Virus record (IMG/VR): IMGVR_UViG_3300035208_000814
Source: an uncultured virus (IMG/VR IMGVR_UViG_3300035208_000814)
Lineage: Duplodnaviria; Heunggongvirae; Uroviricota; Caudoviricetes
DNA length: 64,000 nt
Direction: 5' to 3' (one strand)
Below the pieces are notes generated by a model, which worked only from the letters and a program-made list of their open reading frames with translations, had not been told where the DNA came from and searched no databases. Position 1 is the first letter of the stretch. Each line of letters begins with the position of its first letter. Of this stretch, positions 43,910 to 63,221 are shown piece after piece. The position numbers were made by a program, and so were the translations under genes.

Positions 43910-44420
43910 ATTTCTTTATTTACTATCAGGTAATGTAGTTCAATCTACAATAGAGAATATAATAGATAACAAAGGAGATGATAACCGATGAAAGATGTAT
44001 TCATAAAAAGATCAGTTGATTGTAAAGTATTTGAGTACGTGTCATTAAATACCTGCTTATTATGTAGGTTTAATGGTAATGATGAGACATTTAATCATAA
44101 TGAATCATGTTGCGTCAAATGCAATTATCCTAATACAAAATAGCAGGAGATAACACTATGTTAATGAAAAAATCAAAATTGGTTAAGAAGTCTCAAACAT
44201 GTATGGCAAATGTAGATAACAATATAGATGTATTAGTATCATTTCAAAAACTATCAGCATTAACAAAACAGTATGCTGATCTTAAGTGCAAATAACTTTT
44301 AATTACCCTGAAATTTAGTGTGTATAATATCACCTTCCTTAAACCATATACACTAAACAGGAAAGTAATTTAACCATTTATCTATTGTATTGTAACAACC
44401 ATTAAGGAGAGGATTAAACT

Positions 44421-46394: not shown

Positions 46395-46401
46395 TTAAAC
46401 T

Positions 46402-47544: not shown

Positions 47545-47739
47545 ACAATAATCATAACATTTTTTGGTTCACTCCATAATGTTATATTAAACAATGCGTT
47601 TAAGGAGATGATAGTATGGTATTTATTGGTATAGACAAAAAACAGTCAGGGTATACTATTAAGATAGAATGTATACGAACTAAAGACCAATGTGACAGGA
47701 TTGTAGACTATATTACAGAAGTATGCGGTGAAACTATAT

Positions 47740-48378
47740 ATGATGACTAATGTATCAGGACAATCAGGATCATTATGGGTGACTGTTCATAAGAGTAGAA
47801 AACTTAATGGTGCTGAATCTGTAATGTCTGTATGCAATCAAAAGTGTGCATTTAAGTCATTCTGTTATAGTGAACATCTGCAAGCATTTCAAAAGTATTC
47901 TCGTAATAGAGCAGAGTTGAATTGTGTAGCACTTAAACAATCCCCATCTACATTTGTGGAGCCAAAATTTAATAGTGAAATAGTCCGATGGTTCTCTATG
48001 GGTTCATGTAATGGTGATAGAAATACACTATTAAACGTAATGACATCTATCCATATGAATCAACAGAGTAAACATGCCATATGGGTAGAGCCGCATTACT
48101 GGTTAATGGCTAATGAACTATTAAACCCCACTGAAGTTAACATCATATACAGTAATAAGGAACTAGATAGTATTAAACAAATAGAAGGGAGAGTGACATT
48201 TAATCTAGCATCATCCCACGACAAATGCAATAGTCTACTTAAAGAGAATCATAATGCAATACGCTGTAATAGACAGTGTAATGTATGTGGATGGTATTGC
48301 TACAAACAACCAGAGGGCATAGTAGTAGAGATTGTGAACACAAAGCATGGAGGGGTAGATAACTATGGTAAGGTATAG
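47740..48378 (+). CDS. gene-88-like Cys-rich (radical-SAM-like) phage protein
   Basis: SRKL...CNQKCAFKSFCYS...VRWFSMG...C-x3-CNVCGWYCY. Confidence 0.55.
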   Translation: MMTNVSGQSGSLWVTVHKSRKLNGAESVMSVCNQKCAFKSFCYSEHLQAFQKYSRNRAELNCVALKQSPSTFVEPKFNSEIVRWFSMGSCNGDRNTLLNVMTSIHMNQQSKHAIWVEPHYWLMANELLNPTEVNIIYSNKELDSIKQIEGRVTFNLASSHDKCNSLLKENHNAIRCNRQCNVCGWYCYKQPEGIVVEIVNTKHGGVDNYGKV

Positions 48379-48550
48379 AGTGGACTACAGTGAGCATAGA
48401 ATGATGAGTATTGAAATTGAGGCCGACACACCCGAAGAAGCAGAGAGAATTGTAATGGATGGCGAGGCTGATTACAACACATCACATGAAGATGATGCAG
48501 AGGTTGTAAGTGTAAATTATGTAGAAGAAATACCAGAGGATCAACTATGA
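48365..48550 (+). CDS. small acidic DpnD/PcfM-like protein
   Basis: IEIEADTPEEAERIV motif. Confidence 0.55.
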   Translation: MVRYRVDYSEHRMMSIEIEADTPEEAERIVMDGEADYNTSHEDDAEVVSVNYVEEIPEDQL

Positions 48551-51500
48551 AAGTAATAAACAATGAACAATTACATAAAACAACTATTAAACTACCGCAT
48601 GGAACTAACATACAAATACAACATAGTGCATTATGCAACGAGGTATACGTAACCACAACTGAGTTTAGTGAAGAGGGATTAATAGGCCAATATCAATTCA
48701 CAATAGACTGCATAACAGGTGAGTATCATAACATAACATCATCCAATATTGAGTCAATTAAGGAAGAGTGATAACATATGTTGTGTAGAGAACTTAAGCC
48801 ATTAAGACCACGTAACAAAAGATACATAGGTCACACCTATTGTCTAGCACACCCGATGATACAATGGATATCTGATGATGGACATTACGGTAGACACCTA
48901 TCAAGATCAGAGATGACAAAGGAGCAACGTATACTTAAGAAACGTGCTACAACAATCATGAATAGAGGATATAGTAATCGAGATATTCATTGGCACACCA
49001 ACATTACAGGTAAGTATAACAAAATTAAGTATACCAACAGAGTGAGGAGACTACATTGAATGTAGACGACTGTAAACTACTAATAAAGTTAGTAGATGTA
49101 GCAGAAGAATATGCACATAAACACTTCGGTGGTAACAAGCCGGAAGTTAAGGACGTATTCTATAATGACAAACACATAACAATTAACTTCAAGTGATTAC
49201 CATGACACATTGTAAATTATGTATACAGGATGACACATCGGGATTTGGATCATGTTGGAGATGTGCATTAGATGGACAGATGGTGCATGAGGACTGTGGA
49301 TGTGACGGTGAAGATTGTTGTGAGGTAAATGATGAGTGACTACATAAAATACAGTTGGGTGTATTGTCTAGAGAAATATCCTTCTGGTACAGTATCAGCA
49401 GGTGGCAAACTCTATAACATATCCATATACTCAATCTACCATAGAGTAATCATTACTAAATGGATATACACCAATCACAATGTAAAGCCATTTGATCTTG
49501 AAGACATAGTAACTAGATATTGCTCTTCACGGTCAGACACATGGGATGGGTGTGATTATGTTAACCACTATTGGCCTAACAATAGATTTGAACAAGATGA
49601 GTATAGTTGCCCATCAGATTTCGATCCAGAGTCTCCTGACTGTCCATTTGCAGAGGGGTTTAGAGAGTTACTAGAGTTACTGGATATACCAGTGGATGAC
49701 TATTACGAGGTGTTATAATGATAACTGTAATTGAATCAATAGTAATAGCACTTATAATATGTGGTGCGGGTATAGTAGGCTTTCTATGGGCATATGGATG
49801 GTGTAAATCCGGGGTGATTTAGTAATGAAGTTAACATGTAATTCACAACCGCCTGATACATTAGTTAACATAACACTAAAGAAAACTAATTGTAGTGTTG
49901 AAGTACAGGCTAATGGTATCACAATATACACTATCTATGATGATGGTACAGTCAAAGAGTTACATACCGATAGTACATTAGATATTCTACCATTGAAATC
50001 TATGGGGTTTATTATGCAAGTGTTTATAAGTGCCCATTCCGAGAAGTCATTCCATGTGTTATGCAGACATAGACGGGAGTAAATGATAACAGTGTAGAGT
50101 GGTATCAATGACACAATACTACATTCTAGTAAATCACGACAAGAATGAAAGAATTACTACAACTACAATGAGTGGAAGTGGAGATGGCCCTGCATTAATG
50201 TCAATGTTACAAAACGGCCTAACCGGGAGAATGTTAATACTTCTTCTAACCAATACCTCTAATATCAATTTAGGACACGATAGCGATGATGGTGACTTCA
50301 AAGCATACACTAACAAGGTAATGCCATATCTAGGGAGATGGTGTAAAGATGACATAGAATTAATAGGTGATTACAATGAGAACTATCGTGGTCTATGGCC
50401 ATTCAATCATTACACAGACATAACAAAAGATATGAGGATTGCTATGTACAGTCTAAACATACAAGCCTTTATAGATCATAGAACATTGAAACATTTATCT
50501 GACCAATATATTTTCGATGAATATATATTACCCGTCAGATAATAATATTCACAATTGCATAAAATCAAATCGGCAGGTTTATAAGGCTATACAACCTAAA
50601 TAGAGGTGTTACACTGACAAATCAAGATGATCTAAATAAACTACTAGATGAGTTTAAGCAAAGTATAGACAAGTTGAATGAAGATGGTTTACAAGATAAA
50701 CTAAACTATCTTAAATCAGACGACATCCTATCACTAAATATATCCACTGCATATCTAGGGTTGAGGAAGGTGCAACGCAATTTCGTGGCAATAGAACAAC
50801 TATGTAAATTTGCCAGTAGAGTTAAAATCCCATCGGGGAATAACAAGAACTAGGAGATGATACAATGACAGACACACCTAAAACTAAAACAGACACAGCA
50901 ACTGTTATCGCGGTAGCAGAGAAAGTAAAGAGAGATGAATTACTTGCTAAATTTATCACGGATAATAATAAACTTGACATGCCCGAATTCATCAATAAAC
51001 TTAAAGACAATAAAGACTTTACAGATATGGAGAAATACTCTGTAATGTGGACTACGGGTGCAATGATGGGGCGTGCTCAGGCAGTAGCCAAAATAGTCAA
51101 TAAAATATATAATATTGTAGATGACGAATAGATTATCTACCATTTTATATTGTATAGTCATAAGATACTAGGACTGTTCACACTTTATAGTGGATAACAT
51201 AATCGGAGAGGGTTAATTGTCTTATGGTATATGTAGAGTATGTGGGGGTAGTGTTGTTAAAGATTGGGGTGGAATTATAGGACAGTTTCATTGTGTAAAC
51301 TGTGGAGTATGTATCACTGTACCCGGTAGACGCACTAACTATAGAACGTCTGATGTGGCGAGAGTTATACGTTTAGCAATGCGTACATTAAATAGAGAAT
51401 CATGTGAGGTTAAACCACTAATGCGAGTTGTAAACAAAATGATGAATAATCAATGTCCAAAGGTCTCAAAGAGTCAGTTGGAGATGTATGGGATTATAGT

Positions 51501-52503
51501 AGTGAACAACCTAATCAAATGTAAATTATCATCAGAGATAACAAAGGAGTGATAATCATAAGCGATAAAGAAGAGGTAGCACATCAGCAATACCAACTGA
51601 AATACATCTATTACAATCGTCTGCATATAACAATACTACGTAATGGTATAACGTTCTATGCGGATATACGTGATAGAGCATACTGGCATAGTGAGATGTT
51701 GAGATGGGGTGAGACAACAGTAATGGTTGAGGATGACATAACATCAACCACACTTAATAAAATGATAACACTAATGAATGAGTTTAAGTGGACATCACAA
51801 CAAGCCAATGGTTTCATGTACACTCTCACAGGGCAACGTCACAATTTAAAGATAGGTCAAATGTACATTGAGGATTAACATGACTGATGTTGTTATACCT
51901 ATAACTACAAGAGAAATCGGTGGTATATGTATGGCTGTATGTCACCTTATGAATGTAGATAAATGTGCTGATTGTGATATACAACCAATTGCCATTGCAT
52001 CTGATAAGAACATAACACTAATACTACGGAGGTAATTTATGAGTGAAATTTCAAAATTAATTCATGAGATTGAGATTGCGGCTAATACCGTGAACACAAC
52101 AGAAGATGCGGCAATCGCAGTATTTGTAGAGTATGTAGATGAACGCTTAACAATGATAAGTAATGAACTATGGGGTTAAATTATGAGTAATGTAATTGGA
52201 AATAAAAAGAAAGTAACAGTTAAGACGATTGAAGAACAGATACCTATCAGTATTAGCCAATATGACTATGAACAGTTTAAACAATTCATGCAGAATAATA
52301 ACATAGATTACATATCACTAGTGAGAATAGTAGCAAAGTATGGATTCTCTTGTGCAGGTTCAGGTAAGCATGATGAGGGATGTGCAGAGTTTATACGTAC
52401 ATCACTATTCCTAATTACTAGTAACGGATTGAGAGATGAAACTAAACGTATTATGCGTAATGCACTTGATAGCGATCCAACATTCATACCCGATTACAAA
52501 TGA
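48547..52503 (+). other. array of small hypothetical early ORFs (e.g. 48547-48771, 48778-49059, 49329-49718, 49825-50082, 50099-50542, 50865-51131, 51217-51552, 51549-51878, 52183-52503)
   Basis: Co-oriented, most with GGAG/GGTG RBS. Confidence 0.6.
50614..50853 (+). CDS. hypothetical protein with CTG start (absent from the ORF track)
   Basis: GAGGTG RBS, 5 nt, CTG, then 79 codons (TNQDDLNKLLDEFKQ...) to TAG; TATA-like sequence at about 50578. Confidence 0.6.
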   Translation: MTNQDDLNKLLDEFKQSIDKLNEDGLQDKLNYLKSDDILSLNISTAYLGLRKVQRNFVAIEQLCKFASRVKIPSGNNKN

Positions 52504-52512
52504 GATGATTAA

Positions 52513-53169
52513 GTGAATAATGACTTAATGTTTAGTAGTGATAGAACGGACTGGGAGACTCCAAACCTTCTATATGACTACTTAAACACATACTTTGGCC
52601 CATTCAATCTAGATGCAGCAGCGTCAATGTATAATGCTAAATGTGCAGAGTACTTTACCAAAGAAGACAATGGACTATTATCTAGTTGGCAAGGCCACAA
52701 TGTCTACGTCAATCCTCCTTATGGTAGAGGCATAACAGGCAAGTGGGTTAACAAAGCCTATAAAGAAGTATATGATACTGCTATGTATAATAGTAGAATA
52801 GTAGTAGAGAAAGACTTTACAGTGGGGGATATGAAACCACCAACTAAAGTTACAATGCTTCTCCCGGCACGTACAGAAACAAAGTTCTTTAAGATGTGCG
52901 CTAATGCACAGCAAATCTACTTTATAACCGGGAGAATATACTTTGAATTAAATGGAGAGCAAATACTAAGTGAGAAAACAGGTAAGCCAACTCCCGCGCC
53001 ATTTCCATCGGTAATAGTAGTGTTTGATTCTGAACACATGTCTATCCCTCCCTCATGGGGCTTTATAGATGGTAAATCATTTAAAAAATCAACCCCAAAA
53101 CACAACGTAACCATAGAATGTGAAGGTGGTATATCCTGTGTGAAAGAGGCTGTAAATACCACTTCATAA
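52513..53169 (+). CDS. phage DNA N6-adenine methyltransferase (Dam-like family)
   Basis: DWETP, LDAAAS, YVNPPYG, LLPARTET, GRIYF, APFPS. Confidence 0.92.
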   Translation: MNNDLMFSSDRTDWETPNLLYDYLNTYFGPFNLDAAASMYNAKCAEYFTKEDNGLLSSWQGHNVYVNPPYGRGITGKWVNKAYKEVYDTAMYNSRIVVEKDFTVGDMKPPTKVTMLLPARTETKFFKMCANAQQIYFITGRIYFELNGEQILSEKTGKPTPAPFPSVIVVFDSEHMSIPPSWGFIDGKSFKKSTPKHNVTIECEGGISCVKEAVNTTS

Positions 53170-53417
53170 TTGAAGAGTGTGTCTATGCATTTCATGGAGA
53201 ATTCAAACCAATTATGTATTGTACATTATGTGGGAATACACAGGAGATAATTGATGAGTAAAGTGTCAACCCCACAACCTAAATCTTCTACTACATTAGA
53301 ATGTTACGGGAGAGGTATTAATATGGATGATGATATGTGTCAGCATTGTCCTGACTCATTGAATTGTCTATTAGAATGGAGAACAAAAAATAAAAATTAC
53401 TGGAGAGAACGATCATA

Positions 53418-54879
53418 ATGTCAGAGAAATGTCCTCATTTAAACTTCACACATGAAATCACCGATGATAAAATCACTGATGATACTTTATCAAAGCAATT
53501 TGGTTATGTAGAAGATTGGAATAACGATGGTAACATGCCACTTCCGGCAGTAGAAGTCCCATTGGATGACTTACTATTTAGGTTAAGTGGGACAATATAC
53601 ACGGCTAAACAATTTAGAAGTGGTAACTTATATGAGCAGAAAGGTTCGTATCGCTGTAACATATGGTTCTTTACATCAGAAACATATGCCTTACTTCAAA
53701 CACGACTAACTAAAGGCACAGAGACTGCTAAATATGAATATAAAGCATATAGAATCAAGGCATGTAAACATAATTACGTGTGTACAAAATGTGGGGAGAA
53801 ATTACCATGAGTGCAGATACTAATTTACAAGCATATAAAAAACAGAAAGAGATTATAAATGCATTGATTATTGCCAACAGTTCATTCAATGGATTGTGTT
53901 GCCCACCCGATAAACAAGGACAAATGAATGATCCAGATTTCGGTGTGTGTAGGGGATGTTTAGCCAGAGATGACGATACAAAATCCTGTATATTTGGTAT
54001 CATATCCGGGCACATCTCAACACTTCACAAGAGAGTGAATAAGTATATGGATGGCACACATCAATTTGACGACCTAAAACTAACAATTGGCAGGTATATC
54101 AAAGACAGCAAATTCACATGTAATGCCGATTGTGACACATGTGAGTTTAGAAGTCAAAACAAACACTGTATATTAAAAGGATGTATGAAATATGACTGAT
54201 AAATTATACATATGCCCAAGATCCCTTGAGTGTAATAGTAAAGGTAACTGTAATCATGTTAAACCCCATGTACACAATAAAACAAGTTGTGATTTATCAG
54301 GTGGTATGTGTGTACCATGTATAAAGTATGAAGAACAAAATGAAGATGATACTGTAATTATGTATAACTATGCAGTTACACTATTAACAAAAACCAGAGA
54401 GGATAGGATAAAAGTAATTGACTCAATTAGATCAATTAAATTTACTGAATGTGACACCATAGTTACATTAAATGATGGGACACAGGTTATATATCCAAGT
54501 AAGATTGTTAAATCCATACACGTAGAAGTCATACCGGGATGATATGATGACTGAACAATTATACATATGCGAACGTAGTGATGTTTGTGGAAATCCTGTA
54601 TGTTCGCACAGTAAGCCTCACGGTTATATGCAATGGTGTGGTACGATGAATTGTATGGGTATTAATGTAAAGTGTGTAAAATATAATGGAGATGATAAAA
54701 TGCAAATGGAAGTAGATACAGTTAAAGTTACAACAGTAGATGTTGATGTATGGCTTGTGAATAAAGATGGTAACATTTATGTCAAGTCATGTAAGAATGG
54801 AACAGAGAAATATGAATGTACACTACATAAAAATGGTGATATTAGTCTGGCAGCCTGTGGTAACTTCAATCACGAATAA
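53418..54879 (+). other. four small Cys-rich hypothetical ORFs (53418-53810, 53780-54199, 54192-54542, 54544-54879)
   Basis: ORF track; the last two share an N-terminal LYIC-x-RS...C-x-H-x-KPH domain. Confidence 0.65.
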
Positions 54880-54894
54880 CAACTATGGTGATAT

Positions 54895-56175
54895 ATGACG
54901 TACAATGCTTACATTACAAAGATAACTAATATCCATAAGCATCCTAATGCCGATAGGTTAGCACTAGGTAGTTGCTTTGGTAATCAGGTTGTAATTGGAC
55001 TGGACATTAAAGAGAATGACATTGGTATATATTTCCCCACGGACGGCCAGTTATCAATGGAGTTTATGAGTAATAATAATCTCGTTGGGAAAGTAGATGA
55101 GACAACGGGTGAGAGAACTGGTGGATTCTTTGATGAGAAAGGTAGAGTACGTACACAAAAATTCCGTAAGGAAAAAAGTGATGGATTCTGGATACCAATT
55201 AAAGCAATAGAATACACAGGGTATGAGTTAGGTGCTAATGACATTGGCAAACCCTTTACAGAATTAAATCACCATCACATCTGTAATAAATACGTAACAG
55301 AAAAGACACGTAACTCTAATGCTTTCCGAGATAAGAAAGAGCGTATCAAGAGTGCGTATCCAAATTTCCATAAGCACATCGACACTGAACAACTAATGTA
55401 TAATCTAGACAGAATTAACGAGGGCGATTATATTGTCATTACAGAAAAACTACACGGAACCAGTGGAAGATCAGCACACACTGATAAAGTTACTAAAGTA
55501 TCAGGCATCAAGGCTTTCATCAATAGGATACTTAAGAGAGCCTACTACAAACCTGAATCATCGTATGACTATGTATGCGGTAGCAGGAATGTCACCCTCA
55601 CCGAAATCTCAATCGACTATGCAGGAGATGAAGGGAGAGCGTATAGACAAAGTATTCATAGAAAGTTCCTAGATAAACTGCACAAGGGCGAGACTATCTA
55701 CTACGAGATTGTGGGGTGGACAAATCAAACATCACCCATAATGAATGAGTGTTCAAACAAGAAACTAAATGATAAGGAGTTTGTAAAGCAATATGGCGAT
55801 ACAACTATCTTCCATTATGGATGTGCCCCCGGTGAACAGTGTGTATATGTCTATAGGATAACACTAACTAACCCGGATGGTATCGAAATAGATTACTCAT
55901 GGGAGCATGTTAAAAGGAGATGTCAGCAACTAGATGTTAACCATGTCCCTGAATTATCATGTGGTATCATAGACAACAAACAGTCATTTGTAGACTCACT
56001 TGACGCAGCCGTAGACAGATGCTCATCACTATCCCCGGCACACATTATGGAAGGGATTGTAGTTAGAGTAGATGGTTCACAGTGGCTAGCCCTAAAGTAC
56101 AAATCCACAAATTTCAAGATTTTAGAGGGTATAATCAAGAGTGAAGATGTAATTGACATAGAGGAGAGTTCTTAA
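54895..56175 (+). CDS. ATP-dependent RNA ligase (DRB0094/Rnl2-like with N-terminal OB-type domain)
   Basis: HPNADRL N terminus; ITEKLHGTS adenylation motif; YYEIVG, EGIVVR, LKYK. Confidence 0.9.
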   Translation: MTYNAYITKITNIHKHPNADRLALGSCFGNQVVIGLDIKENDIGIYFPTDGQLSMEFMSNNNLVGKVDETTGERTGGFFDEKGRVRTQKFRKEKSDGFWIPIKAIEYTGYELGANDIGKPFTELNHHHICNKYVTEKTRNSNAFRDKKERIKSAYPNFHKHIDTEQLMYNLDRINEGDYIVITEKLHGTSGRSAHTDKVTKVSGIKAFINRILKRAYYKPESSYDYVCGSRNVTLTEISIDYAGDEGRAYRQSIHRKFLDKLHKGETIYYEIVGWTNQTSPIMNECSNKKLNDKEFVKQYGDTTIFHYGCAPGEQCVYVYRITLTNPDGIEIDYSWEHVKRRCQQLDVNHVPELSCGIIDNKQSFVDSLDAAVDRCSSLSPAHIMEGIVVRVDGSQWLALKYKSTNFKILEGIIKSEDVIDIEESS

Positions 56176-56520
56176 TGACATTACAGCGTAAACTTGAACG
56201 GCTAATATCCGAATTACAAGACATTAGAGATGAGTGTAGATACACTAATGAACAAGCACAGTTGGATGTATGTATTAATAGACTACAGGACATCTATATA
56301 ACATCAGATGGTGAATCATAATGTCAAACCAAGTGTTTTGCTCATGGGTTAATGCGCGTGTAGACAAAGATGATCTACATCCAATATGTTTTGACCACAT
56401 AGTATCCACTAACATCCTAAATGGAGAGGTAGATATGTCATGTTATCACTGTGAGTTATCACCTATGATCGCCAATGGTATGCCAATCAAAGACATGTTA
56501 CGGAATCTGAGAGGAGAGTA

Positions 56521-57198
56521 ATGACATTACCACCTAAATACCTATCAATACTACCCAAAAAATACACTGTATTGTCCCATAGTGAGGTGGGTAGTAGAAT
56601 GTGGGGGATGCATGATGAACATTCCGATTACGATGTTATTACTGTATACGCAGAGGATACCAAACGGATATTAAGCGGTTATAGCATAACCACTAATCTA
56701 CCCCAGTATCAGGCTGTTAAGGGCAAATACGACATTGACGAGCAATACTTTGAAATCAGCCACTTAATCAACCTAATCTGTAAAGGAAACTGCAATGCTA
56801 TTTGGGCAGTCACCACCCCAATTGTATATGACAACCTACCTATATTTGGGGAGATTCGTAATGCAATATGGGGTAAGTGTACAGTGTCAATGTATCCATC
56901 TATATTTGGTATGGCGGTATCTCAGTGGGCAGATGCAGAGAAGCGTAAGGATGTTAAATCCCCATTGAAGTCTAAATCTACGGCAATGCGTACACTACAA
57001 TATGGTAGAAATCTACTTGAAAAGAAACGTAATGTGTTTGATCCAGTAGTAATACGAGATTACACATTGGACGAATTTGATGCTACATTTATGGCATTAA
57101 ATAATGACGTATCATTATCTGATATACCAGACAAACTTGATGAAGAACCATTTAGGGATATCCTAATGGATTATAGAGTGGATCAACTAGACAGTTAA
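56521..57198 (+). CDS. Pol-beta superfamily nucleotidyltransferase (YcgL/NrdC.11-like)
   Basis: VGSRMWG...SDYD, and KGNCN. Confidence 0.85.
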   Translation: MTLPPKYLSILPKKYTVLSHSEVGSRMWGMHDEHSDYDVITVYAEDTKRILSGYSITTNLPQYQAVKGKYDIDEQYFEISHLINLICKGNCNAIWAVTTPIVYDNLPIFGEIRNAIWGKCTVSMYPSIFGMAVSQWADAEKRKDVKSPLKSKSTAMRTLQYGRNLLEKKRNVFDPVVIRDYTLDEFDATFMALNNDVSLSDIPDKLDEEPFRDILMDYRVDQLDS

Positions 57199-57656
57199 TG
57201 TGATACTATGGAAGAGAAGATAACTTGGGTAGAAGCATTTGCTAGTATAGATTGGGATGCACCACACTGGAAAGCACGCAGAGAATACTTTGAACACCTT
57301 AAAATTAAGAGACAGGAAAGATATAATGGGGAAAACAAAGATAACTGATTACTTATGTGTGTATTGCCGTATAATGTATTTTAAAGAGAGGCCAACTATA
57401 TGCCCTGAATGTGGAAAATCAGTATTTAAAGCAATTAAGAGGAAATCATGAGGGATAAAGACACGGGATGGAAGGCCATAACTAAAGATAAGTTACTATC
57501 TATACTTAACACATTACCTGATGATACCTTATTCTCTGTAGGGGAGATAACACGTAATATTGTCGTGTGGAAAGGAGTATGGCCGGATGAAGAATACATT
57601 GGACAGATTAATTTAATGACAGATGAGTTTGATGATCATACAGGAGTTGTTAACTA

Positions 57657-58094
57657 ATGGGATTATTTGACTGGTTAACAAACTCACCTAATTTCCAACC
57701 CGATAAAGAAATCAGGTATTATACAGATTATCGTAGTAATACTTACGAGGTAGATGATTACAAATATGGGGATACTAAACTATCAAAACGTAAAGTTGGT
57801 GATGTATACCAGATAGAGGTTAGGGAGTATGAGTCAGGCAAATTACACGTAGAAATTAAGAAGTCGATTGGATATGGGGGATATTGCAAAGATGCTGAAA
57901 AATGGTTTGACTCATTCAACTGTGATGATATTAAAGCCTTCTATGATGCCGTAGTTAATACCAGAATGAACAACAACATATCATGGCACGCATCATATGA
58001 ATTAGGTAGATTAAATGGACAACGTATACGTGACCAGAAAGAGTTAGAAGCCAAACCATATAGAGATAGACTTAAGAGGTGTTTAAATGATTAA
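57657..58094 (+). CDS. hypothetical protein, paralogue of 63397-63831
   Basis: FDSFNCDDIKAFYD versus FAGFNSDDVKKFYD. Confidence 0.65.
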   Translation: MGLFDWLTNSPNFQPDKEIRYYTDYRSNTYEVDDYKYGDTKLSKRKVGDVYQIEVREYESGKLHVEIKKSIGYGGYCKDAEKWFDSFNCDDIKAFYDAVVNTRMNNNISWHASYELGRLNGQRIRDQKELEAKPYRDRLKRCLND

Positions 58095-58380
58095 ACTATA
58101 CTTACTAATAGGTGCATTGCTGTTAATTGGCTGTATAGGGTATTGCCATGCCGATTCATCAAACACAATCAATGCGGCTACTCTATATAACAAAGTAGAT
58201 CCAGGATTCTTACAATATGACTATGAAGCAACAGTTATGTTACAATCATTATATTGGCAAAACAAAGAGATTATTGAACTAATGAAAGAACAGAATGAAT
58301 TACTACGAGAACAGAATGCAATGATGCGTAATGTAACATCACAATCACCGTTAGGATCATGGAGAGTGCATGTTGATTAA
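58087..58380 (+). CDS. secreted/membrane-anchored coiled-coil protein
   Basis: Signal-like N terminus; QNKEIIELMKEQNELLREQN. Confidence 0.6.
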   Translation: MIKLYLLIGALLLIGCIGYCHADSSNTINAATLYNKVDPGFLQYDYEATVMLQSLYWQNKEIIELMKEQNELLREQNAMMRNVTSQSPLGSWRVHVD

Positions 58381-58604
58381 TAAACCCTGTACACCCGGAT
58401 TAAAGTATCCAATACCAACCCCGCGTTGCTATGCTAATTATGAAAAGTGTGAAGAGTGTGAAAGTTGCATTTTATATGTGAAGTGTCTGACATTGTCGGT
58501 TGAATTAGCCTTGAATTGTCCTGATACCCTTCAAAAACGCCGCGATTCACTCCAAGAAGAATACCGGGAGGAACTATCCCTCTGTCATGAGCACGAATCA
58601 AATC

Positions 58605-58621
58605 AAAAGGGTTAAATACTT
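58605..58621 (+). promoter_or_regulatory. BRE/TATA promoter for the tRNA array
   Basis: AAAAGGGTTAAATACTT, similar to the early promoters; upstream of leader hairpins and the first tRNA. Confidence 0.7.
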
Positions 58622-58733
58622 TCAAGTCAATCTCTATGGGTAACGTCTGATTTCGGTCAGATGAGTTCAGGCGTTCAATCCAACAGTAAAAGTAACTAAT
58701 AACTACTTTTACTTTCGACAACATAATATACTT

Positions 58734-58806
58734 GGGATTATAGGGTAGTCAGGCATCCTTCCAGACTTGGACTCTGGAGACTGCGGTTCAATTCCGCGTA
58801 ATCCCA
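58734..58806 (+). tRNA. tRNA-Pro(UGG)
   Basis: Acceptor GGGATTA/TAATCCC; anticodon arm CCAGA-CTTGGAC-TCTGG; T loop TTCAATT. Confidence 0.9.
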
Positions 58807-58807
58807 T

Positions 58808-58940
58808 AGGGGAATGACGCATTAATGGTTAATGCACACATCATCCGATAAGTATATCCTCCGTAGATATATAAGTTGCTTGTTTGTGGTCTGTCTATAG
58901 ACGTATAGATGGTATTGGTTACAGTCCAATCATTCCCCTA
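58808..58940 (+). ncRNA. tRNA-like RNA A: extended acceptor, long D stem, long variable arm, enlarged anticodon arm
   Basis: AGGGGAATG/CATTCCCCT; GCATTA/TAATGC; T arm ATTGG-TTACAGT-CCAAT. Confidence 0.7.
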
Positions 58941-58952
58941 GTAGAAACGTAT

Positions 58953-59075
58953 GCGGGGATGGCTCAGTTTGGGAACAGCACATATCATGTCTTACTATCA
59001 ATTACTAGTATTGGCAATAGAGTGAGATGGTCAGAGTGTACATAATATGCGTGGGTTCAAATCCCACTCCCTGCG
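58953..59075 (+). ncRNA. tRNA-like RNA B with about 50-nt expansion of the anticodon arm (possible non-canonical intron)
   Basis: GCGGGGA/TCCCTGC-G; D arm GCT..GG..AGC; T arm GTGGG-TTCAAAT-CCCAC. Confidence 0.75.
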
Positions 59076-59080
59076 TTAAT

Positions 59081-59150
59081 GATTGTATCGCCAATGGTAG
59101 GCAAGCAGTCTCCAAAACTGCCGATGTGAGTTCAAGTCTTACTACAGTCA
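59081..59150 (+). tRNA. tRNA-Trp(CCA)
   Basis: GATTGTA/TACAGTC; GCAGT-CTCCAAA-ACTGC. Confidence 0.88.
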
Positions 59151-59154
59151 TTTT

Positions 59155-59227
59155 GCTAATGTAGCACAATTGGTAGTGTCCCATCCTGTTAAGATGGTGG
59201 TTGCAAGTTCGAGTCTTGTCATTAGCG
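59155..59227 (+). tRNA. tRNA-Asn(GUU)
   Basis: GCTAATG/CATTAGC-G; CCATC-CTGTTAA-GATGG. Confidence 0.9.
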
Positions 59228-59231
59228 TTGA

Positions 59232-59302
59232 ACATCATTAGTGTAGAGGTAGCACGATTCGTTTACACCGAATCAGAATAGGTTCGATTCCTGTATGATG
59301 TA
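59232..59302 (+). tRNA. tRNA-Val(UAC)
   Basis: ACATCAT/ATGATGT-A; ATTCG-TTTACAC-CGAAT. Confidence 0.88.
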
Positions 59303-59374
59303 TGTCGTGTAGTATATTGGCTAGTATTGTGGCCTCATAAGCCACGGAAGGAAGTTCGATTCTTCCCATGACAA
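59303..59374 (+). tRNA. tRNA with CAU anticodon (elongator Met or Ile2)
   Basis: TGTCGTG/CATGACA-A; GTGGC-CTCATAA-GCCAC; lacks the initiator GGG/CCC pairs. Confidence 0.85.
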
Positions 59375-59376
59375 TA

Positions 59377-59410
59377 TAATAGTTACAGAGATCATAACTC
59401 TGACTATTAG
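59377..59410 (+). ncRNA. armless mini-tRNA-like hairpin (7-bp stem, TA, anticodon-like arm with CAT)
   Basis: TAATAGT-TA-CAGAG-ATCATAA-CTCTG-ACTATTA-G. Confidence 0.5.
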
Positions 59411-59494
59411 AATGTATCTTAACTACATGTCACTGTTCCTCCGTAGAATATACTGAATGGTTAAGTGGTGTTACATACCAATATCAATGTAGTA

Positions 59495-59554
59495 AGGTTG
59501 ATCATTCAATTGGATAGGATTACGTAAATCAGGGTTCAAGTCCCTGTCAACCTT
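59495..59554 (+). ncRNA. tRNA-like RNA lacking the anticodon arm
   Basis: AGGTTGA/TCAACCT; D arm ATTC-AATTGGATA-GGAT; 9-nt linker TACGTAAAT; T arm CAGGG-TTCAAGT-CCCTG. Confidence 0.75.
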
Positions 59555-59555
59555 T

Positions 59556-59627
59556 GTGATTGTAAGGTAACAGTAAGCCTATCAGGTTGTGACACTGAAA
59601 GATGGAGTGCAACTCTCCACTATCACA
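59556..59627 (+). tRNA. tRNA-His(GUG), somewhat degenerate
   Basis: GTGATTG/CTATCAC with one mismatch; TCAG(G)-TTGTGAC-(A)CTGA; T loop TGCAACT. Confidence 0.7.
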
Positions 59628-59859
59628 TGCACTCGTTTCCCGATATATGTTCTGGTGCAGATTAGAAAATATATTACTCAGTATCATACGCATTTGAGTA
59701 TAAATATTGAAGTATGACGTAGCATGAGTAAACGTGATGATGACGCATGGTAACGAAATAAGAAGTCACCTTACTATATGGGCATACGCTGTATAGTTCG
59801 TAGTTCGGTATGTGAATCTCCCGCCAGAGAGAGCAGAACCAATATGTCTGGCAAAGTAA

Positions 59860-59932
59860 CCGTATGTAGTAGAGGGGTTAATACGATGGGCTGTAAACCT
59901 ATTGACCGCAAGTTCAAATCTTGCCATACGGA
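59860..59932 (+). tRNA. tRNA-Tyr(GUA), archaeal type
   Basis: CCGTATG/CATACGG-A (C1:G72); ATGGG-CTGTAAA-CCTAT; short variable loop. Confidence 0.9.
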
Positions 59933-60017
59933 TTGTCCATATGACATTACCCTGCATGGTGATTAATCTGGATGGGTGGGGAATAAGGTGTCAAGGAATA
60001 CCCATCATTATATTAGA

Positions 60018-60101
60018 GTGGTTATGCTAGAGTGGTCTATTAGGTACGGTTTAGACCCGTATGGTTTAGTACCTTCGTAAGTTCAAATCTTACTAACCAC
60101 A
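60018..60101 (+). tRNA. tRNA-Leu(UAG)
   Basis: GTGGTTA/TAACCAC-A; TACGG-TTTAGAC-CCGTA; long variable arm. Confidence 0.9.
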
Positions 60102-60189
60102 TTGGTAGTAGATGGGCATAAGGTATGAGGTAGAGCCTTAAATGTACAATCTTCCTCAATCTATTACCATTACTTGTATAGAAAATAAA

Positions 60190-60270
60190 GGGTGTATGCC
60201 AGAGCGGTTATTGGGCCAGACTTAAGATCTGGTGGTTAGTCCTTCACAAGTTCGATCCTTGTTACACCCA
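60190..60270 (+). tRNA. tRNA-Leu(UAA)
   Basis: GGGTGTA/TACACCC-A; CCAGA-CTTAAGA-TCTGG; variable arm. Confidence 0.92.
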
Positions 60271-60690
60271 TCAACCTTTAACTAGGTGATTAACTATGTC
60301 AATTAAACTTCCACTAACATCTAAATGTAGAATATCATATGATTTAAAATATGTTTTTAAATCAAGATATGATTATAAGTGTATATTAAAGGGATGGAGA
60401 ATAGGATACTTTAAAATAGTTAAGTGATTACTGTGAATACAGAAGAAAACTTACTACTACTAATATTGATGTTCTGTGTAATACCAATGATAATAGCAAT
60501 TATAACAACATATTATTATGTTAAATGGTTAAACAAGCATCACTTGTGATTAATTATGAGTAGAACTATAAGACATGGGGAGAGGACTTGTGGGCGATGG
60601 TGTCCGTGGTGTTATCCCAAAGAGTCTTATAATGGTTCTATTCGTATGAGACGTAGATTACAAATACATAGAGAATTAACAGAATATTTC

Positions 60691-60766
60691 ACTCCCGTAG
60701 TGTAACGCTGGTAAATCATCAAAGTCTTTGAAACTTTGGACGTAGGTTCAACTCCTGCCGGGAGAA
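60691..60766 (+). tRNA. tRNA-Gln(UUG)
   Basis: (A)CTCCCG/CGGGAG(A); AAAGT-CTTTGAA-ACTTT. Confidence 0.85.
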
Positions 60767-60779
60767 TTTAATAAATTAC

Positions 60780-60850
60780 TCACCTATAGAACAATGGCAG
60801 TTCACACTTCTTATAAGGGTGCTACGTGGGTTCAATTCCCTCTAGGTGAA
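60780..60850 (+). tRNA. tRNA-Ile(UAU)
   Basis: TCACCTA/TAGGTGA-A; CACTT-CTTATAA-GGGTG; T loop TTCAATT. Confidence 0.82.
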
Positions 60851-60877
60851 TGTAACCTCTAGATAGTAGGGGTTAAT

Positions 60878-60948
60878 GCACATATGGCAGATTGGATATG
60901 CGTTGGATTGCAGATCCGATAATGTAGGTTCAATTCCTACTATGTGCT
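60878..60948 (+). tRNA. tRNA-Cys(GCA)
   Basis: GCACATA/TATGTGC with U73; TTGGA-TTGCAGA-TCCGA. Confidence 0.9.
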
Positions 60949-60951
60949 TAT

Positions 60952-61025
60952 GGGGATATAATGTAGTCTGGATTGCATACCGGACTTTTAATCCGGTTGT
61001 ATGGGTTCAAGTCCCATTATCCCCG
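60952..61025 (+). tRNA. tRNA-Lys(UUU)
   Basis: GGGGATA/TATCCCC-G; CCGGA-CTTTTAA-TCCGG. Confidence 0.92.
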
Positions 61026-61101
61026 TTTATAATTTTAGTATCGTTATATGACCAGTGGGAACTATCCAAATTATTTCGTAAAGTAAAACGGAGAGGTTTA
61101 A

Positions 61102-61811
61102 ATGTCAAATGAAGAGAAATATGTAGTAGTGCCAATTGAATATGATGGAGAATTAGGACAGATTGACTTTGAATCATATAGTCACTCTACCATTGAAGCC
61201 ACACGGGAAGATATGGAAGAGAATATTGATCCTGATGACTATGAAAGAGTTGCAATCTGTAAAGTTATTGAAGTATTTAAGGCCGGAAAGTGGACATTAG
61301 AGGAAAAGTATTGTCCAGTGACGAAGAAGTAAATGGTATCTTCCATGATTAACGGTAGACTATATCGAGTATATACTGAACTTGGATGTACGATGATTGA
61401 AAACCCAATGTATATCATTGCTAACACTCTCGTTGAAGCAGATGAAAAAATGAAGACACAATGGAGGAACTTGGGGCAAACACCACCATCTACACATTCT
61501 ATTGATCTAGTTGCAAATATGGTGTATGATTAATGTATCAGCGTAATTATACATTCTCGCGGGATGCTAATAAAAAACAAGGTGTTATTAATGAGATTGG
61601 TGAAAACACACTAACCATTAGTAATTTTCAACACTACACGTATATGTTAAGCCCGAAATTACTATCAATGCTTGTACCGGGAGATGAGGTATTATACAAA
61701 ACTAATGCCCGAAACAATGAATTACTATTTGTCAAGGTGATTAAATGGAACAGAAAGTTGAGGAAACAACTGAAAGAATGTACTGTCCAACCTGTAAACT
61801 ACCCCGATTAA
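61102..61811 (+). other. three small hypothetical ORFs (61102-61332, 61333-61533, 61533-61811)
   Basis: Abutting co-oriented ORFs; the first has a GAGGT RBS. Confidence 0.6.
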
Positions 61812-61892
61812 CCTATAGAACAATTGGATGGTGGTATACATGGGTACGATGTTTCAAGTGTGATAATGCAGTAACTTGTCAGGAGATAACAT

Positions 61893-63221
61893 ATGACTAA
61901 TCTATTTGATCTAATATACATGGCTGATGCCTACAAGTACACTCATTACAAACAGTATCCACCGGGAATACAAAATGTCTATAGTTACTATGAATCTAGG
62001 GGAGGACGTTGGCCTAACACTGTATTCTTTGGATTACAATACTTCCTAAAGCGATACCTAGTTGGGCAAGTTATAACTCAACAGATGATTGATGAAGCAG
62101 AGCCTAGTATCAATGCTGTATTTGGACATCAATACTTCAGCAGAGAAGGTTGGGAGTATATTATTGACACGTACAAGGGACGATTACCAGTTACAATTAG
62201 GGCAGTTGAAGAGGGTTCTATCAATCCAACTAGAACAGTCCTAATGAACATAGTTAATAATGACACTGAATGTTATTGGTTAACCAATTACCTTGAAACA
62301 CTATTGAGCAATCTATGGTATCCATGCACTGTAGCAACTGAATCCTATCAAATCAAAAAGTTATTACAAACCTACTATACTAAAGCAAACCAACAGATGA
62401 ATGGTATAGAGTTAAATGACTTTGGTATGCGGGGATGTAGTTGTCCAGAGCAAGCAGCCATTGGTGGTATGGCACACCTCACATCCTTCATAGGAACAGA
62501 TAACATATTGGGTATTCAAGCCGCTAAAAAGTATTACAATGCAACTCAACCCATAGGTGTTAGTGTGGCAGCAGCCGAACATAGCACGATAACAGCATGG
62601 AGTAGAGAGCGAGAGGCAGATGCATACCTAAACATGATAAGAGTCTATCCAGATGATGCTATACTCTCTCTAGTGTGTGATAGTTATGACACAGAGAATG
62701 CATTAGAGAACATCTTTGGATGGGAACTATACGAGTGGATAATGCATCACAGTGGCAAAGTAGTTATGCGCCCTGACAGTGGTGATCCATGTGCAATGTC
62801 CATGTTAACCCTAGAGAAACTTCATAATCTATTCGGTGCAGAGAAGAACAAAGCCGGATACAATGTGTTAAATCCTCATGTTGGAGTTATCTATGGAGAT
62901 TCCATTGATTATGAAACCATTAAGAAAATAATGGACAATGTAGTATTAGCGGCGAAGTATGCACCGTCTAACATTATCTTTGGTAGTGGTGGAGGACTCC
63001 TTCAAAAGTTAAACAGAGACACAAATCAATACGCATTTAAATGCAGTGCAGTTAGAGTGTATGATAAGTGGGAAGATGTTTGTAAAACCCCAATTACTGA
63101 TCCCAATAAGAGAAGTAAAGCCGGGAGAGTTGGAGAGGACTTACCAATAGTCTTTGACAGTGGTAAACTATTACGTGAAACAACATTCGATGAGATTAGA
63201 AAGAAGTTGGAAGTGACATAG
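61893..63221 (+). CDS. nadV: nicotinamide phosphoribosyltransferase (NAMPT)
   Basis: DAYKYTHYKQYP, FFGLQY, WYPCTVAT, NDFGMRG, AAEHS, CDSYD, RPDSGDP, FGSGGGLLQ, RDT...AFKCS. Confidence 0.95.
   Translation: MTNLFDLIYMADAYKYTHYKQYPPGIQNVYSYYESRGGRWPNTVFFGLQYFLKRYLVGQVITQQMIDEAEPSINAVFGHQYFSREGWEYIIDTYKGRLPVTIRAVEEGSINPTRTVLMNIVNNDTECYWLTNYLETLLSNLWYPCTVATESYQIKKLLQTYYTKANQQMNGIELNDFGMRGCSCPEQAAIGGMAHLTSFIGTDNILGIQAAKKYYNATQPIGVSVAAAEHSTITAWSREREADAYLNMIRVYPDDAILSLVCDSYDTENALENIFGWELYEWIMHHSGKVVMRPDSGDPCAMSMLTLEKLHNLFGAEKNKAGYNVLNPHVGVIYGDSIDYETIKKIMDNVVLAAKYAPSNIIFGSGGGLLQKLNRDTNQYAFKCSAVRVYDKWEDVCKTPITDPNKRSKAGRVGEDLPIVFDSGKLLRETTFDEIRKKLEVT

What the first reader, a model, noticed from the sequence alone, without database searches (positions are those of the whole stretch)
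58605..60270. tRNA operon interleaved with remodelled tRNA-like RNAs: candidate decoy or anti-defence RNA system
Seen: behind one TATA promoter, canonical tRNAs alternate almost without spacers with non-canonical units. Three keep paired acceptor, D and T arms but have a rebuilt anticodon domain (two expanded, one deleted). One keeps only acceptor+anticodon. Several are other closed hairpins. Random decay would not be expected to leave acceptor and T stems perfect while changing only the anticodon domain. Established: viral tRNAs and RNA ligases counter host anticodon nucleases, and RNase P/Z recognise the acceptor-T elbow. Inference: tRNA scaffolds are used to cut non-translating RNAs (nuclease decoys, synthetase/EF1A sponges or antisense RNAs) out of the precursor.
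Basis: partly seen in the sequence, partly recalled or inferred. Interest (0 to 1): 0.85.

Follow-up and report, generated by a model that had tools for sequence, protein, structure and literature searches.

The report
tRNA look-alike RNAs in phage tRNA array
An uncultured tailed phage carries, packed between its ordinary tRNA genes, three genes shaped like tRNAs but unable to read codons; such extras have been known since phage T4, and their role is still unknown.

Summary
The window is a tailed phage of bacteria, not an archaeal virus. Bases 58.7-61.0 kb hold 13 canonical tRNA genes, 9 of them inside the finding.

Three tRNA-shaped units lack a usable anticodon arm:
- Unit A (58809-58939): a class-II-like cloverleaf with a 52-nt rod in place of the anticodon arm.
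- Unit B (58953-59076): Rfam tRNA 33 bits, with 66 nt in place of the anticodon arm.
- Unit C (59495-59554): 33.5 bits, with the anticodon arm deleted.

A fourth unit, D (59422-59494), and most of the "closed hairpins" are weak. The "one TATA promoter" is not confirmed.

New here:
- B carries G3·U70, the alanine identity pair. In my calibration set it occurred in 7 of 8 tRNA-Ala and 0 of 243 ordinary non-Ala tRNAs.
- The loop CUCCGUA caps hairpins in both A and D.
- B's insert folds no better than shuffled sequence.

I found no orthologues; two public runs hold identical DNA. Covariation therefore cannot be tested, and selection is not shown.

Best reading (0.4): non-decoding tRNA mimics cut from the array transcript by RNase P and RNase Z, like T4 RNA C and RNA D. 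Disrupted pseudogenes remain a serious rival (0.3). The decoy or anti-defence role is only suggested by context.

Earlier notes of this scan describe similar units on other phage DNA.

The parts
54895..56175 (+). RNA ligase gene (context)
   Evidence: PF09414 RNA_ligase E 3.5e-9; phrog_968 E 1e-65. 44% aa identity to the RNA ligases of Bacillus phages Kirov and PBC2.
56521..57198 (+). RlaP-family nucleotidyltransferase gene (context)
   Evidence: PF10127 RlaP E 7.2e-13; phrog_388. RlaP is described as RNA-ligase-associated in PMC7824862 (passages read).
58616..58732 (+). Leader with two strong hairpins ahead of tRNA-Pro
   Evidence: MFE -28.8 kcal/mol, z -4.76, 0 of 200 shuffles fold as well. 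No promoter-like or terminator-like site is called here.
58734..58806 (+). tRNA-Pro(UGG)
   Evidence: ARAGORN; Rfam 57.7 bits.
58809..58939 (+). Unit A: 131-nt class-II-like tRNA-shaped RNA. It has an 8-9 bp acceptor, a D arm, a 52-nt irregular rod capped by the 7-nt loop CUCCGUA, a variable hairpin, and a T-like arm with the deviant loop UUACAGU.
   Evidence: 11-bp perfect closing repeat. Fold z -4.14. Rod z -2.55, variable hairpin z -3.0. ARAGORN -i draws a cloverleaf with an 8-bp acceptor and a 42-nt 'intron' at a non-standard place. No Rfam hit.
58953..59076 (+). Unit B: 124-nt tRNA-shaped RNA with alanine-type acceptor (G3·U70) and a canonical T arm. 66 nt stand in place of the anticodon arm.
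   Evidence: Rfam tRNA 33.1 bits with [66] in place of [17]. G3·U70 calibration. The insert alone folds no better than shuffles, z -0.10.
59081..59374 (+). tRNA-Trp(CCA), Asn(GUU), Val(UAC), Met(CAU), 0-4 nt apart
   Evidence: ARAGORN; Rfam 45.7-64.2 bits.
59377..59408 (+). Hairpin after tRNA-Met
   Evidence: Fold of 59375-59421: -9.7 kcal/mol, z -1.85, 10 of 200 shuffles fold as well. Weak.
59422..59494 (+). Unit D: 73-nt stretch closed by a 7-bp stem, with an inner hairpin bearing the same CUCCGUA loop as unit A. Doubtful as a unit.
   Evidence: Fold z -0.21. The 11-mer TCCTCCGTAGA occurs only here and in A in the whole window.
59495..59554 (+). Unit C: 60-nt tRNA without an anticodon arm. 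It keeps the acceptor, D arm and canonical T arm; the palindrome UUACGUAA stands where the arm was.
   Evidence: Rfam tRNA 33.5 bits with [0] in place of [13]. mascRNA model 20.4 bits, below its cut-off of 42.5. Own model R1 gives 24.5 bits, E 5.8e-6.
59556..59627 (+). tRNA-His(GUG), with U rather than G at position -1
   Evidence: Rfam 45.1 bits; ARAGORN -ps90.
59629..59859 (+). 231-nt spacer with no significant structure and no credible ORF
   Evidence: z +0.29. No tRNA-like hit with filters off.
59860..60270 (+). tRNA-Tyr(GUA), Leu(UAG), Leu(UAA), separated by 85- and 88-nt spacers. The second spacer holds a hairpin at 60103-60168.
   Evidence: ARAGORN. Spacer folds: 59933-60017 z +0.73; 60103-60168 z -2.53.
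60296..60705 (+). Three small ORFs (43, 41, 49 aa) between the two halves of the array
   Evidence: ORF listing with upstream sequence. No credible family: one weak Pfam match far below cut-off for the 41-aa ORF, none in PHROGs.
60691..61025 (+). tRNA-Gln(UUG), Ile(UAU), Cys(GCA), Lys(UUU)
   Evidence: ARAGORN; Rfam 45.5-65.1 bits.
61893..63221 (+). Nicotinamide phosphoribosyltransferase gene (context)
   Evidence: PF04095 E 1.2e-43; phrog_448 E 1e-138.

Best explanation
Units A, B and C are non-decoding tRNA look-alikes. They are transcribed with the phage's 13 real tRNAs. The host's tRNA-end enzymes cut them out: RNase P at the 5' end and RNase Z at the 3' end, followed by CCA addition, since no gene in the array encodes CCA. 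This would give stable small RNAs of about 131, 124 and 60 nt. They are the counterpart, in an unrelated phage, of the T4 small RNAs RNA C and RNA D.

They cannot pair with codons on the ribosome. What they can still do is occupy proteins that recognise the acceptor/T-arm part of a tRNA. Unit B also keeps the one feature alanyl-tRNA synthetase needs (G3·U70), so it may even be charged.

Shown: the shapes, the spacing, the alanine-type pair and the gene neighbourhood. Inferred: transcription, cutting, stability, charging and any target.
For: - Acceptor, D and T parts of B and C align to the Rfam tRNA model at 33 bits, with only the anticodon arm replaced or missing.
- A is closed by an 11-bp perfect helix and folds far better than shuffles.
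- The units abut real tRNAs by 0-13 nt, like the genes of a polycistronic tRNA precursor.
- G3·U70 in B. Among 255 ARAGORN tRNAs of the window and 80 loci (duplicate contigs included), this pair occurs in 7 of 8 tRNA-Ala, 3 of 4 CUA suppressors and 0 of 243 others. The array has no canonical tRNA-Ala.
- The loop CUCCGUA with its closing pair is identical in A and D while the flanking stems differ. The 11-mer occurs nowhere else in 64 kb.
- Precedent. In T4, rnaD (119 nt) and rnaC (139 nt) follow tRNA-Arg by 1 and 6 nt, and rnaC carries a canonical T arm. Their function is still called unknown (PMC9697503, passage read).
- Arrays of distant ligase-bearing phages also hold tRNA-shaped genes that ARAGORN rejects: 10 of 15 examined.
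Against: - There is no orthologue, so there is no covariation and no proof of selection. Two runs hold identical DNA.
- B's 70-nt insert folds no better than shuffles (89 of 200 fold as well), and B as a whole has z -1.5.
- C's junction palindrome is what a simple deletion of the hairpin tip would leave.
- A's T loop departs from the consensus, and A gets no Rfam hit.
- B's discriminator is G, whereas the Ala tRNAs displayed have A.
- D and several 'hairpins' are not better than chance.
Confidence: 0.4

Rival explanations
1. Disrupted tRNA genes on their way out. B would be a tRNA-Ala hit by a 50-60-nt insertion. C would be a tRNA that lost the tip of its anticodon hairpin by slippage. A would be a class-II tRNA with an insertion. 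They may still be cut out of the transcript, but they do nothing.
For: - B's insert has no significant structure (z -0.10).
- C keeps a perfect palindrome at the junction, as a hairpin deletion would leave.
- B's D stem has a C·C mismatch, and A's T loop is deviant.
- There is no conservation evidence at all.
- The array lacks canonical Ala and Ser tRNAs, as expected if those genes were the ones broken.
Against: - All remaining stems of A are perfect: 11-bp closure, 7-bp apical hairpin, 7-bp variable hairpin, 5-bp T stem. The acceptor and T arms of B and C are intact too.
- No other tRNA debris is detectable in the 231-, 85- and 88-nt gaps with filters off.
- The loop motif is shared by A and D.
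- Phage genomes shed useless DNA quickly (general knowledge, inference).
- A recent event would explain the intact stems equally well, so these points are weak.
Confidence: 0.3
2. One reading: the units are decoys or sponges. They would draw off host tRNA-cutting defence nucleases or other tRNA-binding proteins, working together with the neighbouring RNA ligase and RlaP repair genes.
For: - Neighbourhood: RNA ligase + RlaP 1.5 kb upstream; NAMPT downstream; ArdC-like, Gad1-like and Dam genes in the same block.
- The tips of A and D carry one identical 7-nt loop with U at the second place, like an anticodon loop.
- The real tRNAs include Lys, Tyr, Asn, His and Gln, which are known nuclease targets (own knowledge).
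Against:
- No such RNA decoy for an anticodon nuclease turned up in my paper searches. These cover only the held library.
- The B tip loop rests on a fold that is not better than chance.
Confidence: 0.15
3. A and B are working tRNA genes with intervening sequences that are removed at the RNA level, like the 'enigmatic introns' of Lak megaphage tRNAs. This would give tRNA-Ala and a class-II tRNA.
For:
- Phage tRNA introns are in print (PMC6784885, abstract and passages read).
- Distant ligase-bearing phages hold 5 distinct insert-bearing tRNA genes in 9 loci.
- The array lacks Ala and Ser tRNAs.
Against: - The ARAGORN isotypes contradict the bodies: B has Ala identity, and A is class II while Thr is class I.
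- The A insert lies at 32/33, not a known intron site.
- No cut of B restores an NGC anticodon loop next to its 5-bp stem (by inspection).
- In the relatives the insert sits inside an intact 5-bp anticodon stem after CUU and carries a conserved hairpin with loop GGCAGNA (12 copies). The window has no such hairpin (0 copies).
- I saw no bulge-helix-bulge motif (by inspection).
- No splicing endonuclease is among the window ORFs scanned (18 ORFs of 218 aa or more across the window, and 28 ORFs in 43.5-63.8 kb).
Confidence: 0.1

Closest known systems
Phage T4 small stable RNAs RNA C (species 1, 139 nt) and RNA D (species 2, 119 nt) in the T4 tRNA cluster
   Same: - Non-tRNA genes of 119-139 nt that abut a tRNA gene by 1-6 nt inside a phage tRNA cluster. 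A is 131 nt and B is 124 nt.
- rnaC has a canonical T arm near its 3' end and folds strongly (z -4.6).
- The function is unknown (PMC9697503).
   Different: - No sequence likeness was found: blastn of A and B against 50,697 phage records gave only short T-arm matches.
- T4 has no anticodon-arm-less 60-nt unit like C.
- T4's RNAs are experimentally seen, whereas these are predictions.
Insert-bearing ('intron') tRNA genes of large gut phages: Lak megaphages (PMC6784885) and the ligase-bearing contigs L010, L011, L015, L066
   Same: tRNA genes in phage arrays whose anticodon region carries 47-76 extra nt. These phages also encode a homologue of the window's RNA ligase (35-41% identity).
   Different: There the 5-bp anticodon stem is intact and a normal loop can be restored. 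Most inserts share a hairpin with loop GGCAGNA. A and B have none of these features.
tmRNA tRNA-like domain
   Same: B has G3·U70, a canonical T arm, and no usable anticodon arm.
   Different: B has no pseudoknots and no credible tag reading frame. At 124 nt it is much shorter than tmRNAs (hundreds of nt, as recalled). ARAGORN, which searches for tmRNA, finds none. B keeps a full D arm.
mascRNA / MEN-beta tRNA-like small RNAs and herpesvirus MHV68 tRNA-miRNA units (eukaryotic; own knowledge)
   Same: These are tRNA-shaped RNAs with a reduced anticodon arm that are cut out by RNase P and RNase Z and are not used in translation. C matches the mascRNA model over its acceptor and T arm.
   Different: The score of 20.4 bits is below the family cut-off of 42.5, so this is an analogy only. 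They belong to a different domain of life.
8/4 and 9/3 'allo-tRNAs' and irregular tRNA polycistrons (PMC5389517)
   Same: A has an 8-9 bp acceptor helix and a long variable arm. That paper reports 8/4 tRNA-Ser and tRNA-His in phage tRNA clusters, and polycistrons of irregular tRNAs (abstract and passages read).
   Different: Allo-tRNAs keep a normal anticodon arm. A has a 52-nt rod instead and a 5-bp T stem.

Membership tests
Canonical tRNA (Rfam RF00005) | 7-bp acceptor stem plus T arm with a GTTCNANNC-type loop | tested here: met
   B and C align over these parts. A has the helices, but its T loop is UUACAGU and it has no Rfam hit.
Canonical tRNA (Rfam RF00005) | 5-bp anticodon stem with a 7-nt loop at the standard distance from the elbow | tested here: not met
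   B has 66 nt in place of 17. C has 0 nt in place of 13. A has a 52-nt rod.
Canonical tRNA (Rfam RF00005) | Score at or above the gathering cut-off (29 bits) | tested here: inconclusive
   B scores 33.1 and C scores 33.5 bits, but only in the permissive searches. Neither was listed in the whole-window gathering search. A scores nothing.
T4 RNA C / RNA D kind (tRNA-cluster small stable RNAs) | Gene of about 120-140 nt directly abutting tRNA genes in a phage tRNA cluster, on the same strand | tested here: met
   A is 131 nt, 2 nt after Pro. B is 124 nt, 4 nt before Trp. T4 layout.
T4 RNA C / RNA D kind (tRNA-cluster small stable RNAs) | Sequence homology to T4 rnaC or rnaD | tested here: not met
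   blastn of A and B against the phage collection, which holds T4, gave no such match.
T4 RNA C / RNA D kind (tRNA-cluster small stable RNAs) | Accumulates as a discrete stable RNA in infected cells | not testable with these tools
   No RNA run is listed for this DNA.
Intron-bearing tRNA (archaeal bulge-helix-bulge type, or phage Lak type) | Removing one continuous insert restores a standard anticodon stem-loop that fits the body's identity | tested here: not met
   The ARAGORN -i solutions give isotypes at odds with the bodies, and a 32/33 insert site for A. No NGC loop can be restored for B (inspection).
Intron-bearing tRNA (archaeal bulge-helix-bulge type, or phage Lak type) | Shared insert hairpin (5 bp + GGCAGNA loop), seen in 4 of the 5 distinct inserts of the ligase-bearing relatives | tested here: not met
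   0 copies in the window, against 12 in the relatives' arrays.
tmRNA | G3·U70 alanine identity pair in a tRNA-like domain | tested here: met
   B: G3 pairs with U70. Calibration.
tmRNA | Tag reading frame with resume codon, and pseudoknots | tested here: not met
   ARAGORN tmRNA search of the window finds none. No tmRNA family appears among the Rfam matches, which were listed up to E = 10.
mascRNA-menRNA (RF01684) | Score at or above the gathering cut-off (42.5 bits) | tested here: not met
   C scores 20.4 bits, E 0.22.

The most novel reading that the evidence does not exclude
The array is an RNA-level counter-defence island. A, C and the CUCCGUA-loop hairpins would be matured by RNase P and RNase Z into stable tRNA mimics. 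B would be an alanine-accepting mimic, a tRNA body that can be charged but cannot decode. Together they would titrate host tRNA-directed defence nucleases or other tRNA-binding factors, while the adjacent RNA ligase and RlaP enzyme repair the real tRNAs.
Probability: 0.15. Interest if true: 0.8.

Novelty: new variant of a known kind. Interest (0 to 1): 0.45.

Why it matters
Small non-tRNA RNAs inside phage tRNA clusters have been known since T4's RNA C and RNA D, and nobody knows what they do. This locus adds three clean and differently built examples next to RNA-repair genes: one with the anticodon arm deleted, one that is alanine-type with an insert, and one that is class-II-like with a rod.

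Unit B gives a sharp, cheap test: does AlaRS charge it, and does that depend on G3·U70? If such RNAs prove to be chargeable or protein-titrating mimics, that would explain a recurrent feature of large-phage genomes and add an RNA layer to phage counter-defence. If they are dead genes, the locus is ordinary.

Tried and rejected
SEARCH FOR ORTHOLOGUES
- Megablast and blastn of the array against the phage collection gave no match.
- Unit A gave one 20-nt chance match, and unit B gave only T-arm matches.
- Protein-anchored scans of viral contigs with RlaP and NAMPT found nothing.
- The ligase scan of viral contigs found 19 loci at 33-41% identity.
- The metagenome scan found 59 loci. The only near relative is L020, which is identical and ends inside tRNA-Val. 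The next best (L021 57%, L022 56%, L024 50%) have no tRNA near the ligase.
- Exact 21-nt patterns from A and C found nothing in viral contigs.

SEQUENCING RUNS
- No RNA holder is listed.
- Contigs of X1 and X2 are identical to the window over 58000-61600. The only differences listed come from unrelated short contigs at conserved tRNA parts.

IDEAS TESTED AND DROPPED
- Anti-Shine-Dalgarno or antisense idea for the CCUCC loop: its complement is not enriched in the window (7 matches with up to 2 mismatches, against 9.2 expected).
- Chance of the shared 11-mer: 9 of 100 shuffles give 2 or more matches with up to 1 mismatch in the whole window. The repeat is suggestive, not proof.
- Inverted repeat flanking the array (58613-58633 with 61160-61180, 76% complementary): judged to be chance.
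- YrlA and tRNA-Sec: no Rfam hit on the units at E up to 10.
- Ligase and RlaP against solved structures by sequence: nothing.

TOOL AND LIBRARY LIMITS
- No whole genome is held for this window.
- The T4 genome review PMC150520 is not held. A T4 RNA review (PMC3014915) had nothing on RNA C/D in the passages shown.
- My model R1 sees B only through its T arm (14.6 bits), so it under-detects units with large inserts.
- In one search I searched 54 of the 78 fetched loci. I left out L020 (the same phage) and 23 short contigs.
Full report
WHAT THE WINDOW IS

The window is part of a tailed phage of bacteria.
- It encodes a large terminase (37308-38804, phrog_17415/phrog_9) and a tail tube protein (30625-31644, PF18906).
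- On the + strand from about 42 kb it has a dense block of small early-type genes.
- That block holds an ArdC-like anti-restriction protein (44421-45398), a weak Gad1-like match (43484-43909), a Dam methylase (52513-53169), an RNA ligase (54895-56175; PF09414, phrog_968 E 1e-65), an RlaP-family nucleotidyltransferase (56521-57198) and NAMPT (61893-63221).
- The ligase is 44% identical to those of large Bacillus siphophages such as Kirov and PBC2. PBC2 has the same order, ligase ... NAMPT, but no tRNA array between them.
- RlaP enzymes are described as partners of RNA ligases in RNA repair in jumbo phages (PMC7824862, passages read).

THE CANONICAL tRNAs
- ARAGORN finds 12 tRNAs between 58733 and 61025.
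- Rfam finds these and a thirteenth at 59556-59627, which ARAGORN at a lower threshold calls tRNA-His(GUG).
- Nine lie in the finding's coordinates: Pro, Trp, Asn, Val, Met, His, Tyr, Leu(UAG), Leu(UAA).
- Gln, Ile(UAU), Cys and Lys follow after three small ORFs.
- None encodes CCA.
- There is no tRNA for Ala, Ser, Thr, Arg, Gly, Asp, Glu or Phe in the window.

THE NON-CANONICAL UNITS

Unit B (58953-59076)
- It aligns to the Rfam tRNA model over the acceptor, D arm, T arm and 3' strand at 33.1 bits, with 66 nt where the 17-nt anticodon arm should be.
- Its third acceptor pair is G·U.
- I calibrated this pair on the 255 tRNAs that ARAGORN calls in the window and the 80 loci held (duplicate contigs included). 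G3·U70 occurs in 7 of 8 tRNA-Ala, 3 of 4 CUA suppressors (identical copies) and 0 of 243 others.
- B is therefore an alanine-type body. Alanyl-tRNA synthetase reads this pair and not the anticodon (established knowledge).
- Its discriminator is G, while the Ala tRNAs displayed have A.
- With the tRNA helices fixed, the insert can be drawn as one long irregular rod whose tip reads UUGGCAA, an Ala(GGC)-like loop.
- However, the insert alone folds no better than shuffled sequence (z -0.10; 89 of 200 shuffles fold as well). I give that drawing little weight.

Unit C (59495-59554)
- It aligns at 33.5 bits with the central 13 positions of the anticodon arm simply absent. My own tRNA model gives 24.5 bits.
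- It keeps a GG-containing D loop and a canonical T arm.
- Where the arm was stands the perfect palindrome UUACGUAA. This is what the two strands of a stem leave if the tip is deleted.

Unit A (58809-58939)
- It has no Rfam hit, but it is closed by an 11-bp perfect helix.
- It folds as a cloverleaf (z -4.1) with a D arm, a 52-nt rod (z -2.55), a 7-bp variable hairpin (z -3.0) and a 5-bp T-like arm with the deviant loop UUACAGU.
- The 8-9 bp acceptor and long variable arm recall the irregular 8/4 tRNAs reported from phage clusters (PMC5389517, abstract and passages read).

Unit D (59422-59494)
- It has a 7-bp closing stem, but its fold is no better than chance (z -0.2).
- Its one notable feature is an inner hairpin with the same 7-nt loop and closing pair as the tip of A.
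- The 11-mer TCCTCCGTAGA occurs exactly twice in 64 kb, at these two tips. Nine of 100 shuffles give two or more matches with up to 1 mismatch.

Spacing
- Spacing is tRNA-like around these units: Pro-2 nt-A-13 nt-B-4 nt-Trp, and D-0 nt-C-1 nt-His.
- Elsewhere there are gaps of 47, 231, 85 and 88 nt.
- Only the leader (z -4.8) and 60103-60168 (z -2.5) fold significantly. 59629-59859 and 59933-60017 do not.
- No sigma-70-like promoter is called just upstream of the array, and the number of promoter-like sites equals the shuffled expectation.

COMPARATIVE EVIDENCE

None could be obtained for these units.
- The phage collection has no DNA match.
- Viral contigs have only ligase relatives at 33-41% identity, and no exact match to 21-nt pieces of A or C.
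- The metagenome scan returned one identical contig that ends inside tRNA-Val (L020), and relatives at 57% identity or less whose contigs show no array near the ligase.
- Two public runs of two studies hold the stretch without a single difference. No RNA run is listed.

WHAT THE DISTANT RELATIVES SHOW
- I ran a tRNA covariance model built from 34 phage tRNAs over 54 of the 78 fetched loci. It found 260 matches.
- Ten of these matches span 115-150 nt.
- In L010/L062, L011/L012/L016/L066, L015 (two genes) and L066 (a second gene), the 5-bp anticodon stem is intact and 51-76 nt sit inside the loop (alignments shown for three of them; sequences of all).
- Most of these inserts share a hairpin of 5 bp with loop GGCAGNA. 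It has 12 copies on the array strand with stem variants that keep pairing, and none in the window.
- These resemble the 'enigmatic introns' of Lak megaphage tRNAs (PMC6784885).
- A and B do not fit this pattern. No cut restores a loop that suits the body, and the ARAGORN solutions (A as Thr with an insert at 32/33, B as Ser) contradict the bodies.
- The relatives also hold other tRNA-shaped genes that ARAGORN rejects even at a low threshold (10 of 15 examined). One is a 115-nt unit in L007 with a rebuilt middle, and another is an 86-nt unit conserved between L025 and L026.
- Odd tRNA-shaped genes are thus common in such arrays. Earlier notes of this scan say the same for other phages; I treat those notes as leads only.

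PRECEDENT
- In T4, rnaD (119 nt) and rnaC (139 nt) follow tRNA-Arg by 1 and 6 nt.
- rnaC carries a canonical T arm and folds strongly.
- A 2022 study still calls them RNAs of unknown function (PMC9697503, passage read).
- That RNase P accepts many tRNA-like substrates is reviewed in PMC11143913 (passages read).

READING
- The most likely account (0.4): A, B and C are transcribed with the tRNAs, freed by RNase P and RNase Z, given CCA, and persist as non-decoding tRNA mimics. Only the shapes, the spacing, the alanine pair and the neighbourhood are shown. Everything else is inference.
- The main rival (0.3): they are recently disrupted genes. B would be a tRNA-Ala with an unstructured insertion, and C a hairpin deletion.
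- Splicing to working tRNAs (0.1) fits poorly.
- The antisense idea for the CCUCC loop found no support.

VERDICT
- The kind is known from T4 RNA C/D and from phage tRNA inserts. This is a new variant, with one sharp testable feature: alanine identity of unit B.

Noticed in passing
L010 2447-2578 (= L062), L011 2704-2826 (also L012, L016, L066), L015 426-558 and 2862-2984, L066 947-1096: Distant ligase-bearing gut-type phage contigs hold tRNA genes with 51-76-nt inserts inside an intact anticodon stem. Most inserts share a hairpin of 5 bp with loop GGCAGNA (12 copies; stem variants keep pairing), and several end in ACCA just before the second exon. By eye the spliced loops would read Lys(UUU), Gln(UUG) and Leu(UAA).
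   Followed up: partly
L009, L060 and L061, each at 2514-2588: The amber-suppressor tRNA(CUA), which ARAGORN labels 'Pyl', carries G3·U70 in 3 of 4 copies. These phages would then read TAG as alanine.
   Followed up: no
window 59555-59628: The phage tRNA-His has U, not G, at position -1 and A as discriminator. This is an atypical His design like that reported for some phage clusters (PMC5389517).
   Followed up: no
window 43484-63221: Early block rich in counter-defence-type genes: Gad1-like (weak), ArdC-like metallopeptidase, Dam methylase, RNA ligase + RlaP, and NAMPT. PBC2 shares the ligase ... NAMPT order but has no tRNA array there.
   Followed up: partly
window 60296-60705: Three small ORFs (43, 41 and 49 aa) split the tRNA array. 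The first has a good ribosome-binding site and the second looks membrane-spanning. The third overlaps the start of tRNA-Gln by 15 nt.
   Followed up: no
L025 7533-7618 and L026 7495-7580: An 86-nt tRNA-shaped gene with a rebuilt anticodon region is kept almost unchanged in two related contigs. Its middle starts with the same 9 bases (GGGAGTGCA) as the insert of L010.
   Followed up: no
window 60851-60877: A tight 9-bp hairpin lies between tRNA-Ile and tRNA-Cys (z -3.3).
   Followed up: no
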